Below are positions 315-14,000 of a DNA stretch of 32,000 bases, piece by piece. Location of the stretch: NCBI GenBank assembly GCA_964354495.1, contig CAYHAA010000008.1, positions 83,054 to 115,053 on the forward strand. The letters run 5' to 3'. The notes beneath the pieces were generated by a model, which saw only the letters and a list, made by a program, of their open reading frames with translations, had not been told where the DNA came from and searched no databases. The stretch comes from an uncultured archaeon. Its GTDB lineage: Archaea > Asgardarchaeota > Thorarchaeia > Thorarchaeales > Thorarchaeaceae. The number at the start of each line of letters is the position of its first letter. Positions within the stretch are counted from its first letter, which is position 1. Position numbers and translations under genes: made by a program.

Positions 315-557
315 GTCGACAGTTGCCTCTCTTGTGTACATCTTCCTGATGCGCCCTACATATCTATCTATTCTAGGCTCCCGCTGGAGAGGGTATGCGG
401 GATGCATTGACTTTTTCTATGGGTGACGCCACAGTGAGCGTCAGCCACTTTTCTACATAGTGCTCTCTTCCTCATACCAAGCATATCCTTGAGTAGATGG
501 TTTCAGAGAAGCAAAGCGAGGTCGGACAAATGCTTGTATACCGAGGTCAGGAGCAAG

Positions 558-768
558 ACCGTTCATTGTAAGTTGTACAATCTTGGACACCAGAGCGTTG
601 TACCCCCAAGAAACGGCACTGGGTGGACTCTGCGAGGCCAGGTACGTGTCAGCACAACCTCAGAGTCCTGTCTCCCACGAGTGATATTTAAAGACCTACA
701 AGAATGGTTCACAGAAGTATCTAAGAGATGTCCAACTTTGTCCGAGTTTTCAGCAGCTGTTGCATACC
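558..768 (-). mobile_element. Short non-autonomous insertion element (MITE-like), copy 1, 208 nt plus one GGT repeat; intergenic
   Basis: Ends match 4110-4298 (37/44 and 59/66 nt identical by manual alignment). ACC (GGT on the minus strand) at 558-560 and 766-768. Subterminal inverted repeat at 573-588 / 730-745. Confidence 0.7.
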
Positions 769-991
769 CTACTCTCGATTCGACACGGACTCTCAAATCA
801 CAAGTCGACCCCAGTGTAGTCCTCTGAGCTGACAACACGCAGGTATCAAGTCTGTGCAATACAGAATGAATGATTTAGCCGGTATGTCTTAATAGTATGA
901 CTGTCATTCTGGGATTGACGACCATAAATGTCCGCAAGAACGGATTCGTGCCCCTAGACACAGGTTCAGTGCAATTCGGAGGCTGCTATTC

Positions 992-2272
992 TTGGATTTC
1001 ACAGGTCTGCTGGTCATTGCCGTCTTTGTGGTAGTGTACGCAGCGATAACGTCAGAGAAAGTCAACAGAACTGCAATGTCGCTCACGGGAATGGCGATTG
1101 TAGCATTAATCCTGTGGACTCTGGGCACAAGTGACTTCAGAGTCTTGACTGAGCACATTGAGTGGTCCACAATCCTATTCATCACAGGTCAGATGATTAT
1201 TGTCACTGTATCTCGTGCCTCTGGCATGTATCAGTATCTCGCTCTTACTCTCGCCCGCCCATCCGGCGGAAATCCACGTCGTCTGTTCATCACCTTTGTT
1301 GTATTCGTATTCTTCATCTCGCTATTCTTTGATACTACGTCAACAATGCTCATCATCGGGCCTTTGACAATCGAGGTCTGCAGGGCATTGGCCTTGGATT
1401 TCAAGCCATTTCTTGTCTCTGAGGCGATAGTCGCGAACTATGCTTCCATACCATCTGTCGTTGGGGATGTACCAAACCTTGTCATTTGGCACGCTACACA
1501 AATCAACGCGGGTTCCATGTTCCTTGCTCTGATTCCTCTGTCCTCCATCTTCTTCCTCATCTCTCTGCCTCTCATGCTGCGATACCTCCAGCGTACTCTC
1601 AAGGAACGTGACATGACAAGATGCGAGGAGTTCCTCGCACTTGACCCGAGTACTCTGATTCACTCTAGACTTGAGTTCTATATGTCCGTAGGAGCCATGA
1701 TTGCCATAGTACTGGCCTTCACAATTGGCAACGCAGTTGGTTTGGAGCCGAGCCTAGTGGTCATGACTATTGCTGCAGTCATGCTGTTGATGACACGACG
1801 TGAGGTGGAACAGATCCTACGTCAGGTGGGATGGGGCACGATCTTCTTCATAATTGGACTGTTCGGCATTGTCGCTGCCCTGGATCTCACTGGAGTGCTC
1901 ACTGACATGACTGTTTGGGCAGAAGCGACTGTAGGCAGTGACAAGGTCATGACCACCCTCTTCATGTTCTGGATACCTGGAGTGATCTCAGCCGTCATAG
2001 ACAACGTACCGATTGCCGCTCTGCTATCTCCCCTTGCAGCTACTTTCGCTGGCATGAGCCCTGTTGTGGTCCTTGCACTCATCTCTGGCGTCAATGTAGG
2101 CGCATTCATCCTCCCCATAGGCTCTCCCGCAAACATCATCGCTCTCGCATTATCAGAAACCGAAAGGGATCCTATTGGCATAGTGGGCTTTGCGAAGGTC
2201 GCAACTCCAATGGCCATACTGATGATGTTGATTGGGACAGGGTATCTGTATCTGCTTACATTCCTACTCTGA
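992..2272 (+). CDS. ArsB/NhaD (ion transporter superfamily; P-protein/SLC13-like) permease
   Basis: 426 aa with about 11-12 hydrophobic segments. Motifs SLFFDTTSTML, VGDVPNLVI, SAVIDNVP and GAFILPIGSPANII are typical of the IT superfamily. TTG start. Confidence 0.8.
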   Translation: MDFTGLLVIAVFVVVYAAITSEKVNRTAMSLTGMAIVALILWTLGTSDFRVLTEHIEWSTILFITGQMIIVTVSRASGMYQYLALTLARPSGGNPRRLFITFVVFVFFISLFFDTTSTMLIIGPLTIEVCRALALDFKPFLVSEAIVANYASIPSVVGDVPNLVIWHATQINAGSMFLALIPLSSIFFLISLPLMLRYLQRTLKERDMTRCEEFLALDPSTLIHSRLEFYMSVGAMIAIVLAFTIGNAVGLEPSLVVMTIAAVMLLMTRREVEQILRQVGWGTIFFIIGLFGIVAALDLTGVLTDMTVWAEATVGSDKVMTTLFMFWIPGVISAVIDNVPIAALLSPLAATFAGMSPVVVLALISGVNVGAFILPIGSPANIIALALSETERDPIGIVGFAKVATPMAILMMLIGTGYLYLLTFLL

Positions 2273-2395
2273 GCCACTCATTCATCTGGTTCATTCATCC
2301 TGCTAGAATCAAAGAACAGCTCAAAGATAGATCCTTGTCCAGCGGAGACTGACAAATCTGACAAACTGTCAATACACATTCAGATTGAACTTGGC

Positions 2396-2509
2396 ATGGA
2401 GAGAGAAGTATTCGTCTGTCCCTTCTGTGGAGCTCCTGATAGAGAAGCAACCACGTCCGATGCACCCAATGGACGTGTGGAACAATGCGACGCTAGGCAT
2501 CCACAGTAA
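2396..2509 (+). CDS. Possible 37-aa zinc-ribbon micro-ORF or gene remnant (MEREVFVCPFCGAPDREATTSDAPNGRVEQCDARHPQ)
   Basis: Manual translation. Contains CPFCGAP, but the second knuckle is incomplete (C-x3-H). Confidence 0.3.
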   Translation: MEREVFVCPFCGAPDREATTSDAPNGRVEQCDARHPQ

Positions 2510-2552
2510 TGGTTGGCCGTTTGCATGTCTTCGTAAGCTCTATTAGTGTTTA

Positions 2553-2590
2553 ATCACTAGTGATATCGCTAGTGATATCAATACTGATAT
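2553..2590 (+). promoter_or_regulatory. Palindromic operator cluster overlapping the PadR start (probable autoregulation)
   Basis: Perfect palindrome ATCACTAGTGAT (2553-2564), near-perfect GATATCgCTAGtGATATC (2562-2579), and a further TGATAT at 2585-2590 overlapping the ATG. Confidence 0.55.
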
Positions 2591-3188
2591 GAAAAAGCGA
2601 GATTACCAACACGGGGGTGAAAAACAAGATATGCACGGACCAAGAGATATGTGCGGACCAAGAATGCACCACCACTGGAGCAGAGGAACCTCATTCGTAC
2701 CAAAGGGATACCTTAGGTCTCAGGTTCTGAAGTTGCTCAGCGAGAAGCCTATGTCGGGTGCTGAGATCATGAGTGTGATGGAAGACAAGACCAGCATGAG
2801 ATGGCGCCCGAGCCCAGGCTCTGTCTATCCTCTGCTCTCATGGCTCCTAGACTCGGGTTACACAAGAGAATTGTCTGACTCGGAGGCTGGTGTCCGCCGT
2901 TACGAGTTAACGGAAGAGGGCAGGAAGTTCCTCGAAGAGGAGGAACTACGAAGGGACCAACACAAGGGTTCCCGGTTCTTCGGACCTCAGTTCGAAGACT
3001 GGGAGGGACCAATGCCTGAAGCGGCACGCGAGCTGATCGGCAGCTGGCGGCACATGAGACGAGCTGGCTTTGCGCTTCGCAGGAAGCTCAGGGATAACTA
3101 CTCTGACGCTCTGGCGACGGAAGCCAAGAAAATAGTGGATGACTTCGTGGAGAAGATCTCCCGCCTCTCTGAAATTGAGAGGGCATAG
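2589..3188 (+). CDS. PadR-family winged-HTH transcriptional regulator with a His/Met-rich N-terminus
   Basis: LRSQVLKLLSEKPMSGAEIM...WRPSPGSVYPLLSWL...RRYELTEEGR is the PadR signature. Confidence 0.9.
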   Translation: MKKRDYQHGGEKQDMHGPRDMCGPRMHHHWSRGTSFVPKGYLRSQVLKLLSEKPMSGAEIMSVMEDKTSMRWRPSPGSVYPLLSWLLDSGYTRELSDSEAGVRRYELTEEGRKFLEEEELRRDQHKGSRFFGPQFEDWEGPMPEAARELIGSWRHMRRAGFALRRKLRDNYSDALATEAKKIVDDFVEKISRLSEIERA

Positions 3189-3245
3189 CTGCCTCCACGG
3201 TGGAGTGAATTAGAATCACTCCATCTTACTCTTCTTTTGAACCAA

Positions 3246-3875
3246 TCAGTCTTGGTTCAAGAATGTCATCACCCTTTCAAGTAGATAACAGGGCGTCTTG
3301 CTCAATGTCTTGCTGACATTCCCCTTCGAGGTCTTTGTAGCCTCTGCAATCTCTGATGTTCGTTTCTTTTCCCATATGTAGTAGTAACAGTGCTGCAGCT
3401 GAGAGGCGCTGAGACCTACAAGTGTCGTGTAAAAGAGGAGAGAATTGACCACTGCATTGTTCTCATCACCTGAGGCCTTCTCATCGACCTTGAAGCCAGC
3501 TGACCTATTCATGTACTTCATGCTCTTTGTTTCATTCAAGGCCTCTCTTGCGTTCCAGAAGGCTGGTCCATCGCACTCATCAGCGCTCTCTTTTCGTATT
3601 ATGATCTCTCCTGTTCCCAGTCCAACACGGAACTCCAGCTCTTCCATCAGAAGCCTATGAAAGAGGAACACAATTGGTTGCCAGCTACTGACCAACAACT
3701 CAATGCTATCGCCCTGAGTTATAGCGGGCATGGCGAGGCAGTAGTCCTTGAAACGTTCGTATGTCTGGCTCAACATGCCGCGCATCTTCTCGTCCACTTT
3801 CCTCCGCTCACGAGCATTGACATCTCTTGATGCTACGATGTCAATAATGACTGCAATCAACGGCTCCTCACCCAA
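3246..3875 (-). CDS. SatD-family protein (nucleotide-cyclase-like palm domain plus C-terminal HTH)
   Basis: IIDIVASR, ITQGDSIELL, FRVGLGTGEI, DGPAFWNAREAL, then HTH-like TSEIAEATKTSKGNVSKTL. TTG start overlaps the upstream gene's stop. Confidence 0.8.
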   Translation of the reverse strand: MGEEPLIAVIIDIVASRDVNARERRKVDEKMRGMLSQTYERFKDYCLAMPAITQGDSIELLVSSWQPIVFLFHRLLMEELEFRVGLGTGEIIIRKESADECDGPAFWNAREALNETKSMKYMNRSAGFKVDEKASGDENNAVVNSLLFYTTLVGLSASQLQHCYYYIWEKKRTSEIAEATKTSKGNVSKTLSKTPCYLLERVMTFLNQD

Positions 3876-4551
3876 CTAGCAGAAATCTAAAGCTGCCCCA
3901 TGTCAACGCCAGCGCCATAGTGATACTCATGAACGTGCCGAGAATATACCAGTCCGCGCACGCACGATCAGTGGTTTCCTTATTCGAGTACCGGAAAATT
4001 GCCTTCCCAGCAACAATGACTGAGAGGAAGCTGAGGATTGTTGTGTATGACAGCGCGCTGTCAAAATATGCTATCAGAATTGCCAGGAATATCAGGCTCC
4101 TCTCCATGTACCGTTCATTGTAAGTTGGACAACCTTGGACGCCGGAGCGTTGTCCTCCCAGAAACGGCACTGGGAAAGAACTCCGCGAGGGCAGGCGTGT
4201 GTCGGAACACTCTCCTCTGTCTGTAGTGGGTCGTAGCATATGAACTCGTACAGCGAAATGTCCAAGTTCGTCCAAGTTTTCAGCAACTGCTGCACACCCC
4301 ATGAGATATCCTCCGTATTGGAGGCCGCCGCACTTAGACGCAATGTCTTCTTCATGCCCTCTTGCCAACCTTCCAAAGACTAGATCAATCAGTAGGCCGG
4401 GCAAGAACAGAGCCAAGAGGTACCCAGAGAGAATTGTGAGGAACTCTGTATTCAGTGAGGGTATCGGAAAGACTACAAGTAGAAACAGAGCAGTACAACT
4501 CACTACTGTCATTAGTAGACCAAGAAGTCGCTGAGACGCCTTCAGAAACAC
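3868..4551 (-). CDS. SatD-partner multi-pass membrane protein (DUF3307-associated C-terminal type), carrying a 62-codon in-frame insertion
   Basis: Hydrophobic N-terminus. Removing 4113-4298 restores GLQYGGYLMG-YMERSLIFLAIL...AGKAIFRY...ADWYILGTFMS, matching the family pattern G-x-x-I-G-x-L-E-R...A-K-S-I-F-R...E-Y-I-L-I-G-T-L (from memory). Confidence 0.8.
   Translation of the reverse strand: MFLKASQRLLGLLMTVVSCTALFLLVVFPIPSLNTEFLTILSGYLLALFLPGLLIDLVFGRLARGHEEDIASKCGGLQYGGYLMGCAAVAENLDELGHFAVRVHMLRPTTDRGECSDTRLPSRSSFPVPFLGGQRSGVQGCPTYNERYMERSLIFLAILIAYFDSALSYTTILSFLSVIVAGKAIFRYSNKETTDRACADWYILGTFMSITMALALTWGSFRFLLVG
4110..4298 (-). mobile_element. Short non-autonomous insertion element (MITE-like), copy 2, 186 nt plus one GGT repeat; intragenic and in-frame
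   Basis: ACC at 4110-4112 and 4296-4298. Inverted repeat TTGGACAACCTTGGAC (4125-4140) / GTCCAAGTTCGTCCAA (4260-4275). Homologous to 558-768. Interrupts a conserved protein motif. Confidence 0.75.
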
Positions 4552-4587
4552 ACCACATATATGATTGCGCTATAGTCTTCTCGCTCC

Positions 4588-4671
4588 ATTATAAGTTTAC
4601 CTTTTTTATTAACAATACACACTGTTTACTATAAAAGTTAACAAACTGACATGTTTACCAATATGGTACAA
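4588..4671 (-). promoter_or_regulatory. TATA-like promoter of the membrane protein-SatD operon plus three tandem GTTTAC-N7-RTWMAM operators
   Basis: Minus strand reads AAAAAAGGTAAACTTATAAT about 40 nt upstream of GTG 4551. GTTTAC occurs at 4595, 4624 and 4653 (29-bp period). Confidence 0.55.
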
Positions 4672-4710
4672 GCCCGGACATCCAAGTAGCTCGTATCAAA
4701 GAAGAGTGTT

Positions 4711-13855: not shown

Positions 13856-14000
13856 ACTGCAAAGACCACTCTCCAACCAAGAGTGACATACAAGACCGTG
13901 ACCTCCCATATAAGAAGTTCTGGTCGAACAAGACCGCTCTGTAGGAGAGACCTCATATGTGTCCGAAGGACTGCACATGCCCTCACGTCTATCGTTCGAG

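What the first reader, a model, noticed from the sequence alone, without database searches (positions are those of the whole stretch)
4110..4174. Conserved hairpin loop of the element pairs with its own 3' boundary: an omegaRNA/ribozyme-like pseudoknot
Seen, on the minus strand of both copies: hairpin CCCAG-UGCCGUUU-CUGGG (4157-4174; 605-623 in copy 1) with an invariant loop. GCCGUUU can pair 7/7 (two G-U) with the terminal GAACGGU at the element/flank boundary. The opposite strand gives only 5 pairs, which points to an RNA on the host gene's sense strand. A long-range 15/16-bp stem (copy 2; 12/16 in copy 1) and an inner AGG...GUG-loop-CAC...CCU stem are also present. Established: TnpB omegaRNAs of IS200/605 and IS607 elements are encoded at the right end, form a pseudoknot next to the boundary, and use the flanking sequence as guide. 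Inference: each copy could express a guide RNA whose spacer is the flank (copy 2: UACAUGGAGAGGAGCC; copy 1: UCUUGCUCCUGACCUC) and target the empty allele next to a GGG-type motif. Alternatively, the pairing could mark a splice site.
Basis: inference. Interest (0 to 1): 0.7.

Follow-up and report, generated by a model that had tools for sequence, protein, structure and literature searches.

The report
Guide-RNA pseudoknot in Asgard mini-transposon
The hairpin loop really does pair with the last bases of a 186-base gene-less jumping element of a Thorarchaeote. This is the standard pseudoknot of the guide RNA (omegaRNA) used by the transposon nuclease TnpB, so it is a new archaeal example of a known device, not a new kind of RNA.

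Summary

- **What the copies are.** Both copies (window 4111-4296 and 559-766, minus strand) are about 190-nt MITEs of an IS607-type element.
- **Link to TnpB.** The same 75-nt right end closes 700-aa-class TnpB-like genes in this genome. One of these sits beside a serine recombinase, with the same left end.
- **Spread.** A covariance model finds about 900 copies in 58 of 86 genomes of the family.
- **The loop-terminus pairing.** Over 128 distinct copies, 94% of its cells form standard pairs. Partner shuffles give 88% (maximum 89.5%) and slid registers give 19-55%. The outermost scaffold pair occurs as U-G, G-C, C-G, U-A, A-U and G-U.
- **Strand.** The abundant G-U pairs place the RNA on the tnpB strand.
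- **Boundary logic.** It matches published IS607 biology: W-GGG (TAM) at the left junction, ACGG at the scaffold end, a GG crossover, and an empty orthologous site lacking exactly 186 nt.
- **New here.** A second covarying long-range helix, and a TATA-like box inside the MITEs about 25 nt upstream of the scaffold.
- **Rejected.** The splicing reading has no support.
- **Not shown.** Expression and cleavage.

The scan had already noted this MITE family, here and on another piece of this genome.

The parts
4111..4296 (-). Copy 2: the 186-nt MITE insert (first base T at 4296, through the right-end GG at 4111-4112), inside a membrane-protein ORF (3868-4551, minus strand)
   Evidence: Orthologues in three genomes of the genus lack exactly 62 codons here. 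Boundaries come from copy alignments.
4297..4300 (-). Left-junction motif GGGG (family consensus W-GGG): predicted TAM / TnpA target. Its last two G are the crossover dinucleotide.
   Evidence: In 43 parsed MITEs position 1 is A 26 / T 16, then G 43, G 43, G 38; upstream bases are random. Published parallel: TGGG.
4259..4275 (-). Left-end direct repeats UUGGACG and UUGGACA: presumed serine-recombinase binding sites.
   Evidence: The same pair occurs at the left end of the full C24 element. It does not covary with the right-end repeats.
4237..4244 (-). Degenerate TATA-like box (UUCAUAUG) at the position of the family's conserved GGTG-YTTATATA motif
   Evidence: A strict TATA-like match lies at a fixed distance in 58 of 107 ends not linked to tnpB, 0 of 23 tnpB-linked ends and 5 of 107 shuffles. 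Consensus.
4186..4218 (-).
   Evidence: The GAGG(N)/(N)CCUC stem is 59-60 of 61 paired, and the closing pair occurs as U-A, A-U, G-C and U-G.
4181..4185 (-). Strand a (CGGAG) of a second long-range helix
   Evidence: Pairs with CUCCG at 4143-4147. The family shows 98% pairing with CAGAG/CUCUG, AGGAG/CUCCU, CAAAG/CUUUG, AGGUUC/GGACCU.
4157..4174 (-). SL1: hairpin CCCAG-UGCCGUUU-CUGGG. Its loop (4162-4168) is pseudoknot strand 1.
   Evidence: Stem 91% paired, with 4 pairs changed on both sides.
4127..4155 (-). SL2: GGACAAC...GUUGUCC. Its loop holds strand a' (CUCCG, 4143-4147) and right-end repeat 1 (GUCCAA, 4135-4140). Its 3' strand is right-end repeat 2.
   Evidence: Stem 92% paired, with 5 of 6 pairs changed on both sides, for example GUAC/GUAC in copy 1.
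4111..4116 (-). Pseudoknot strand 2: GAACGG, the last six bases of the scaffold
   Evidence: Pairs with loop CCGUUU. Covariation.
4095..4110 (-). Predicted guide of copy 2 (UACAUGGAGAGGAGCC): host-gene sequence directly 3' of the GG boundary
   Evidence: Inference from position. Flanks are random after a preferred first T. Published rule for IS607.
559..766 (-). Copy 1: a 208-nt MITE of a sister subfamily, in an intergenic stretch. It has TATA-like UUUAAAUA (685-692), SL0 (633-663), strand a CAGAG (628-632), SL1 (605-623), SL2 (575-603), GAACGG (559-564).
   Evidence: 85.3 bits.
543..558 (-). Predicted guide of copy 1 (UCUUGCUCCUGACCUC)
   Evidence: Inference from position.

Best explanation
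Each copy is a gene-less derivative (MITE) of an IS607-type transposon of Thorarchaeota. It keeps three things: the two ends that the serine recombinase TnpA needs, a TATA-like box, and the complete scaffold of the omegaRNA that guides the element's large TnpB nuclease.

The scaffold is about 110 nt and has three stem-loops (SL0, SL1, SL2) locked by two long-range helices.
- The stretch after SL0 pairs with the SL2 loop.
- The SL1 loop (CCGUUU) pairs with the last six scaffold bases (GAACGG). This forms an H-type pseudoknot directly before the guide, which is the finding.

Transcription would run on into the flank, so each copy carries its own guide of about 16-20 nt.

After excision the donor site reads W-GGG followed by that flank. 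TnpB made elsewhere in the genome would cut it and so favour re-copying of the element. The resident copy escapes because its scaffold ends in ACGG, not GGGG.

Shown here: anatomy, covariation, link to tnpB and tnpA, boundary and empty site. Inferred: transcription, TnpB binding in trans, cleavage.
For: - **Link to TnpB.** The same 75-nt end closes TnpB-like genes at C1 (721 aa), C3, C24 and C44, plus fragments. Matches are Cas12f1-like_TNB at 1e-14 and guided_TnpB at 1e-19. GxDRG, FEDL, HADxNAARNI and CxxC...CxxC motifs are visible.
- **Link to TnpA.** No Y1 transposase is in the genome. A serine recombinase lies upstream of the C24 tnpB. A left end of the MITE type (A-GGGT..., two TTGGACA-type repeats) lies at C24:10672, giving a 3.2-kb element.
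- **Pseudoknot, whole set.** 93.6% of cells paired against a shuffle maximum of 89.5%. Pair 7 is canonical in 123 of 128 against a shuffle mean of 73, with six canonical types. C-G to U-A and G-C to A-U changes occur at two core pairs.
- **Pseudoknot, tnpB-linked copies.** In 30 tnpB-linked copies from 6 genera, pair 7 is canonical in 29.
- **Strand.** Only 78% of cells pair on the opposite strand.
- **Boundary.** W-GGG against ACGG.
- **Literature.** The nexus-loop to 3'-end pseudoknot is universal and essential; TGGG/TCGG logic. Two pseudoknots occur in an IS607 reRNA. Gene-less elements that carry omegaRNAs are known.
Against: - No RNA data set holds the locus, so no transcript is shown.
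- Single-sequence folding energy is no better than shuffles (z +0.39 and +0.55). The structure rests on covariation alone.
- Much of the pair-7 covariation (U-G to G-C) sits in one genus plus one further genome (G054). Independent events are therefore few, and relatedness inflates the shuffle tests.
- The three whole tnpB-linked copies of this genome each have one mismatch in the middle of the pseudoknot.
- Only 63 of 98 MITE-type ends keep all six pairs.
- The TATA-like box of copy 2 is degenerate.
- The TnpB scores lie below NCBIfam's curated cut-offs.
Confidence: 0.8

Rival explanations
1. The structure is a true omegaRNA pseudoknot by descent, but the two window copies (and most MITEs) are silent relics. 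They would not be transcribed or used by TnpB, and the pairing survives only because the copies are young.
For: - MITE-type ends carry more broken pseudoknot pairs than tnpB-linked ones (63 of 98 against 21 of 30 fully paired).
- Copy 2 has a degenerate TATA-like box.
Against: - Both window copies keep all six pseudoknot pairs, SL0, SL1, SL2 and the a-a' helix.
- A TATA-like box that is absent from tnpB-linked copies is kept at a fixed distance in MITEs of many genera, which suggests selection for their own transcription.
- Compensatory changes occur within MITE subfamilies.
Confidence: 0.13
2. The loop-terminus complementarity acts in DNA, as an inverted repeat read by the serine recombinase at the right end, not in RNA.
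For: - The right end does carry protein-binding repeats (TGTCCAA twice), and the terminus is part of the recombination site.
- The core CCG/CGG pairs hardly vary.
Against: - Pair 7 is a G-U wobble in 66 of 128 copies, which would be a mismatch in DNA. Pairing drops from 94% to 78% on the other strand.
- Changes keep RNA pairing (U-G, G-C, C-G, A-U, U-A) rather than a fixed protein-binding sequence.
- No equivalent repeat flanks the left-end crossover.
Confidence: 0.04
3. The pairing marks a 3' splice site: the element is removed from the host mRNA, like an IStron or an archaeal BHB intron.
For: - Copy 2 lies in sense orientation, in frame and without a stop, in a membrane-protein gene.
- In IStrons the same pseudoknot strand overlaps the 3' splice site.
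Against: - No group I, group II or other ribozyme family matches, even at E up to 10.
- The element is too small for a group I core.
- Insert lengths across the family are not generally multiples of three: 176, 177, 178, 187, 188, 208.
- Insertions lie in both orientations relative to ORFs, and in intergenic DNA.
Confidence: 0.03

Closest known systems
omegaRNA of IS607-family TnpB, as characterised for the Clostridium botulinum IStron and compared with ISXfa1 and ISDra2 (Zedaveinyte et al., bioRxiv 10.1101/2023.11.20.567912)
   Same: - It lies at the right end, on the tnpB strand.
- It has consecutive stem-loops, with one loop pairing to the scaffold 3' end just before the guide.
- The scaffold ends in CGG.
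- The TAM (NGGG) equals the TnpA target, with a GG core dinucleotide.
- Self and non-self differ at TAM position -3 (G against C).
   Different: - The host is archaeal (Thorarchaeota), and the TAM begins with A or T rather than T alone.
- The pseudoknot hairpin is the middle of three stem-loops, not the first.
- There is no intron.
- The partner TnpB is about 700-720 aa, against about 400.
- Most copies are gene-less and carry a TATA-like box.
reRNA of ISFba1 IS607 TnpB, derived from RAGATH-18 (Ren et al., Cell Res 2024, PMC11061315)
   Same: It is an IS607 guide RNA with three stem-loops and two pseudoknots. One pseudoknot is formed by an apical loop pairing with a distant segment, and both are needed for activity.
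   Different: - No match to the Rfam RAGATH-18 model.
- The scaffold is about 110 nt, against 187 nt.
- In the parent it overlaps the tnpB coding end, whereas the ISFba1 reRNA is separate from the ORF.
- The TAM is W-GGG, against AGGAG or GAGGG.
PATE-like gene-less IS200/IS605 elements that encode omegaRNAs (Meers et al., bioRxiv 10.1101/2023.03.14.532601)
   Same: These are non-autonomous elements that keep both ends and an omegaRNA, which must be served in trans by TnpA and TnpB.
   Different: - Here the chemistry is a serine recombinase acting on double-stranded DNA (IS607), not Y1 single-strand transposition.
- The elements are archaeal, with up to more than 50 copies per genome, and have a TATA-like box of their own.
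aCas1-TnpB loci of Asgard archaea (Makarova 2020; Altae-Tran et al. 2023, PMC10691335)
   Same: The large TnpB genes at C1, C3 and C44 that carry this right end are each paired divergently with a giant ORF of 1100-1900 aa. That paper noted a variable stretch after one conserved T downstream of such tnpB genes.
   Different: - I did not show that the giant ORF is the aCas1 of that paper.
- The GTTCACTCA motif reported there is not part of this right end.
- The RNA structure and the MITEs are not described in the passages I read.

Membership tests
TnpB omegaRNA (OMEGA guide RNA), IS607 type | Encoded at the transposon right end on the tnpB strand, overlapping or following the tnpB 3' end | tested here: met
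   The same 75-nt end closes TnpB-like ORFs at C1, C3, C24, plus fragments. At C1 the ORF stops 8 nt before the boundary. 30 tnpB-linked copies occur in 6 genera.
TnpB omegaRNA (OMEGA guide RNA), IS607 type | Partner protein is a TnpB-family RuvC nuclease | tested here: met
   PF07282 at 1e-14 (above the cut-off). NF040570 guided_TnpB at 1e-19 to 1e-21, but below the curated cut-off. RuvC I-III and zinc-finger motifs are present in P0001 and P0002.
TnpB omegaRNA (OMEGA guide RNA), IS607 type | Conserved scaffold stops sharply at the element boundary, and unrelated flank (the guide) follows | tested here: met
   All 27 own copies end ...AAYGRWCGR(Y), then diverge. Flank bases +2 onward are random.
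TnpB omegaRNA (OMEGA guide RNA), IS607 type | Pseudoknot between a stem-loop's loop and the scaffold 3' end | tested here: met
   94-95% of cells paired. Three pairs have changes on both sides. The value exceeds all shuffles and all slid registers.
TnpB omegaRNA (OMEGA guide RNA), IS607 type | TAM beside the left end equals the transposase target and differs from the motif at the scaffold end | tested here: met
   W-GGG at 43 left junctions against ACGG at the right end. The function of this motif as a TAM was not testable.
TnpB omegaRNA (OMEGA guide RNA), IS607 type | The RNA is made, bound by TnpB and directs DNA cleavage | not testable with these tools
   No RNA run lists the locus.
IS607-family insertion sequence / MITE derivative | Serine-recombinase TnpA; GG crossover dinucleotide at both junctions; no target duplication beyond it | tested here: met
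   A Resolvase-domain ORF lies inside the C24 element. The filled and empty sites differ by exactly 186 nt, with one GG kept.
RAGATH-18 / reRNA (Rfam) | Match to the Rfam covariance model | tested here: not met
   cmscan of the window at gathering threshold, and of 400-4700 at E up to 10, gave no such hit.
IStron (IS605/IS607 fused to a group I intron) | Group I intron core at the left end | tested here: not met
   No group I match in Rfam. The left part of the MITE is only about 85 nt.

The most novel reading that the evidence does not exclude
The MITEs are not passive relics. They would be self-promoted 'orphan guide' genes: hundreds of dispersed omegaRNA units per lineage, each with its own TATA box and flank-derived guide. 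They would load the few large TnpB proteins in trans. One use would be to retain each MITE at its own site. Another, for copies whose guide lies in a gene, would be to target or regulate host loci. The scaffold would be an unusually compact double-pseudoknot fold of about 110 nt serving a 720-aa archaeal TnpB.
Probability: 0.3. Interest if true: 0.6.

Novelty: new member of a known kind. Interest (0 to 1): 0.42.

Why it matters
- It gives a covariation-backed secondary structure, boundary, predicted TAM (W-GGG) and guide start for the omegaRNA of a little-studied, oversized TnpB clade of Asgard archaea.
- It shows that this RNA has spread as about 900 gene-less copies through one archaeal family.
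- That makes the clade testable as an RNA-guided nuclease, because protein, scaffold and TAM are all now specified.
- It extends the nexus-to-3'-end pseudoknot rule, established in bacteria, to archaeal IS607-type elements.
- The internal TATA-like box suggests how gene-less copies could still make guides.
- It is not a new principle.

Tried and rejected
- **Rfam.** Gathering threshold on the whole window, and E up to 10 on 400-4700, gave only two chance C/D-box hits. No omegaRNA, RAGATH-18, intron or ribozyme family matched.
- **Public sequencing runs.** No RNA holder is listed, and only small DNA shares were found.
- **Single-sequence folding.** MFE z-scores were +0.39 and +0.55 on the RNA strand, and -0.50 and +1.21 on the other. 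Thermodynamics alone neither supports nor orients the RNA.
- **Search outside the family.** The class holds only one further genome, and it had no match.
- **First a-a' count.** It used the wrong occurrence of CUCUG and was redone.
- **First regex parse of the loop.** It mis-registered a few rows and was redone from the model's columns.
- **Long-range left-end/right-end stem as RNA structure.** Rejected. Where right-end repeat 2 is GUAC, the local 5' strand is GUAC, but the left-end repeat stays UGGAC. In the parent elements the two ends lie 3-8 kb apart.
- **In-frame selection of inserts.** Lengths of 176-208 nt are not generally multiples of three.
- **Not run.** Protein homology searches, structure prediction and complex prediction. 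They would not change the verdict on the RNA.

Full report
**1. The observation**

Read on the minus strand, window 4157-4174 is CCCAG-UGCCGUUU-CUGGG. Window 605-623 is the same hairpin with one extra U.

Both repeats stop at ...ACAAUGAACGGU (4110 and 558), after which the two sequences are unrelated. Loop GCCGUUU pairs 7/7 with GAACGGU, with two G-U pairs. On the plus strand those two become A-C.

**2. What the repeat is**

The genome (3.3 Mb, 51 contigs) holds at least 26 copies of the same 3' end, several at contig ends.
- About 20 are complete elements of 176-208 nt. They start W-GGGT..., with two TTGGACA-type repeats, and end ...ACAAUGAACGG-U.
- None holds a gene, so they are MITEs.

The same terminal 75 nt closes large TnpB-like ORFs.
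- These lie at C1:5801-7963 (721 aa), C3:79171-77084, C24:12300-13856 and C44, plus fragments on C7, C17 and C46.
- They match Cas12f1-like_TNB (1e-14) and guided_TnpB (1e-19 to 1e-21, below NCBIfam's cut-off). They keep the GxDRG, FEDL and HADxNAARNI motifs and the CxxC...CxxC finger.

The genome has no Y1 transposase but has two serine recombinases.
- One lies just upstream of the C24 tnpB.
- A MITE-type left end lies at C24:10672. With the right end at 13864, that bounds a 3.2-kb IS607-type element.
- The C1, C3 and C44 tnpB genes are each paired divergently with a giant ORF of 1100-1900 aa.

Earlier notes also name the organism a Thorarchaeote. I did not test that.

**3. Boundary and empty site**

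Orthologues of the membrane protein interrupted by copy 2, in three genomes of the genus, lack exactly 62 codons.
- The orthologues read CTCATA-GGA-TAC...
- The filled site reads CTCATG-G-GG-T[...]AAC-GG-TACATGG.

A clean 186-nt insert requires three things: the first G of GGGT belongs to the target, a GG dinucleotide is shared by both junctions, and the T after the right-end GG is flank. A GT crossover is equally compatible. A second, more diverged empty site agrees.

Over 43 parsed MITEs the left junction is W(A 26 / T 16)-G-G-G(38) followed by T, with random bases upstream. The right end is U-(G/C)-A-A-C-G-G followed by T in 38, then random bases.

This matches the C. botulinum IS607 IStron, which has a TGGG target and TAM, a GG core, a scaffold ending UCGG, and self/non-self discrimination at position -3.

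**4. The pseudoknot**

I built a covariance model from the 27 own-genome ends. It finds about 900 matches in 58 of 86 genomes of the family (13 of 16 genera). It finds none in the single other genome of the class.

I aligned 133 distinct ends from 30 genomes.

*Tool count on 93 distinct rows*

| Helix | Cells paired | Pairs changed on both sides |
|---|---|---|
| SL1 stem | 91% | 4 of 6 |
| SL2 stem | 92% | 5 of 6 |
| Loop-terminus helix | 94.6% | 3 of 7 |

The whole structure exceeds 500 of 500 shuffles on all five measures, and exceeds every slid register (30-45% paired).

*My own count on 128 rows, with the loop read in a fixed register*

| Measure | Observed | Control |
|---|---|---|
| Cells paired, all 7 pairs | 93.6% | partner shuffles 87.9% mean, 89.5% maximum of 1000; slid registers 19-55% |
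| Pair 7 (third U of the loop with the G of GAACGG), canonical | 123 of 128 | shuffle mean 73, maximum 89 |

Pair 7 occurs as U-G 66, G-C 33, C-G 17, U-A 4, G-U 2 and A-U 1.
- Every one of the 33 copies with C at that terminal position has G in the loop.
- Core pairs also show C-G to U-A (own genome, C7:76787) and G-C to A-U (G008).
- In 30 copies still attached to a tnpB end (6 genera), pair 7 is canonical in 29, with six pair types.

Cautions:
- The G-C state sits in genus g2 plus one genome of g12, so independent events are few and shuffles overstate significance.
- The three core pairs hardly vary.
- The whole tnpB-linked copies in this genome each carry one internal mismatch.

Strand: the abundant wobble pairs make the helix 94% paired on the tnpB strand and 78% on the other. 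This argues for RNA and against a DNA inverted repeat.

Geometry: a 5-6 bp stem, one loop base, a 6-bp second stem and a long third loop. From general knowledge of RNA pseudoknots, this is an ordinary H-type pseudoknot.

**5. The rest of the RNA**

SL0 (GAGG.../...CCUC) is 59-60 of 61 paired. Its closing pair occurs as U-A, A-U, G-C and U-G.

A second long-range helix joins the stretch right after SL0 to the loop of SL2.
- It occurs as CAGAG(U)/(A)CUCUG, AGGAG/CUCCU, CGGAG/CUCCG, CAAAG/CUUUG, CAGAGA/UCUCUG, and AGGUUC/GGACCU in the tnpB-linked g2 copies.
- It is 98% paired, against a shuffle maximum of 90% and slid registers of 23-59%.
- It crosses SL2, so the scaffold is a double pseudoknot. 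ISFba1 reRNA likewise has two.

- Where right-end repeat 2 has changed to GUAC, the local SL2 5' strand has changed with it, but the left-end repeat has not.
- In the parents the two ends lie kilobases apart.
- I read these repeats as recombinase sites.

**6. A promoter-like box**

MITE-type copies share GG(T/A)G-YTTATATA about 25 nt upstream of SL0.
- A strict TATA-like pattern occurs at a fixed distance in 58 of 107 such ends.
- It occurs in 0 of 23 tnpB-linked ends, 0 in a control window and 5 of 107 shuffles. Most of the remaining MITE-type ends have one-mismatch versions.
- Copy 1 has UUUAAAUA. Copy 2 has a weaker UUCAUAUG.

Reading this as an archaeal promoter is an inference.

**7. Comparison with what is known**

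- Zedaveinyte et al. state that IS605 and IS607 omegaRNAs share consecutive stem-loops, with a 'nexus' loop pairing to the scaffold 3' end. They show that this pseudoknot is essential and can be rescued by compensatory mutation.
- Ren et al. solved an IS607 reRNA with two pseudoknots.
- Meers et al. describe gene-less elements that encode omegaRNAs used in trans.
- Altae-Tran et al. noted a variable stretch after a conserved T downstream of Asgard aCas1-linked tnpB genes. The passages I read give no RNA structure.

The finding is therefore a new, archaeal member of a known kind. Its particular features are the position of the pseudoknot hairpin (second of three stem-loops), a compact scaffold, a 700-aa-class TnpB, and MITEs with their own TATA-like box. 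It is not a member of Rfam's RAGATH-18 family and carries no intron.

**8. What is not shown**

No transcript was found, because no RNA run lists the locus. Folding energies are unremarkable. TnpB binding, TAM use and cleavage are inferred from homology of design.

**9. Verdict**

- Observation confirmed.
- The omegaRNA pseudoknot reading is supported (about 0.8).
- The splice-site alternative and the long-range-stem reading are not supported.
- The same MITE family had already been noted by this scan, on this window and on another piece of the genome (e1-5383732, e1-5383545).

Noticed in passing
window 800-874 (+): A third, weak match to the right-end model (24.6 bits, E 5e-5), on the opposite strand, 30 nt from the left end of copy 1. 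It is probably the decayed right end of an older element into which, or beside which, copy 1 landed.
   Followed up: partly
L004:265-338 (+) = G000:C8:82375-82448, about 600 nt before the window start: Another diverged right end of the same family (48.8 bits), with a broken pseudoknot loop (GCCCUCU). This makes four ends within 5 kb of this contig.
   Followed up: no
window 3868-4551 (-): Copy 2 sits in sense, in frame and without a stop in a membrane-protein gene. It adds 62 codons between ...GGYLMG and YMERSLIF.... Orthologues in G040, G035 and G052 are uninterrupted. Whether the host protein tolerates the insert is open. Family insert lengths are not generally multiples of three.
   Followed up: partly
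window 4237-4244 and 685-692 (-); consensus in relatives' loci: A conserved TATA-like box (GGTG-YTTATATA) lies inside the MITEs about 25 nt upstream of the first scaffold stem. It is absent from tnpB-linked copies. It is a candidate internal archaeal promoter for the guide RNA.
   Followed up: partly
window 4181-4185 with 4143-4147 (-); 628-632 with 591-595 (-): A second covarying long-range helix (CGGAG/CUCCG, CAGAG/CUCUG) crosses SL2, so the scaffold is a double pseudoknot.
   Followed up: yes
L030:1305-1382 (+) = G000:C1:5804-5881: The first codons of the 721-aa tnpB hold a hairpin CCAG-UGCCAUUC-CUGG that resembles SL1 (25 bits to the right-end model). Its meaning is unknown. It could be a left-end counterpart or chance.
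   Followed up: no
L031:554-1513 (-) = G000:C24:11353-12312; also C22:361-1305 and C7:24406-25347: A 320-aa ORF with no Pfam match lies between tnpA and tnpB in the C24 element. It recurs (78% and 48% identity) beside the second serine recombinase on C22, and on C7. It is weakly similar to the C-terminal part of the giant ORF at C1.
   Followed up: partly
window 2550-2590 (+): A direct repeat, TCACTAGTGATATC then GCTAGTGATATC, each half itself partly palindromic, lies just upstream of a 199-aa ORF (2589-3188). It looks like an operator for that putative regulator.
   Followed up: no
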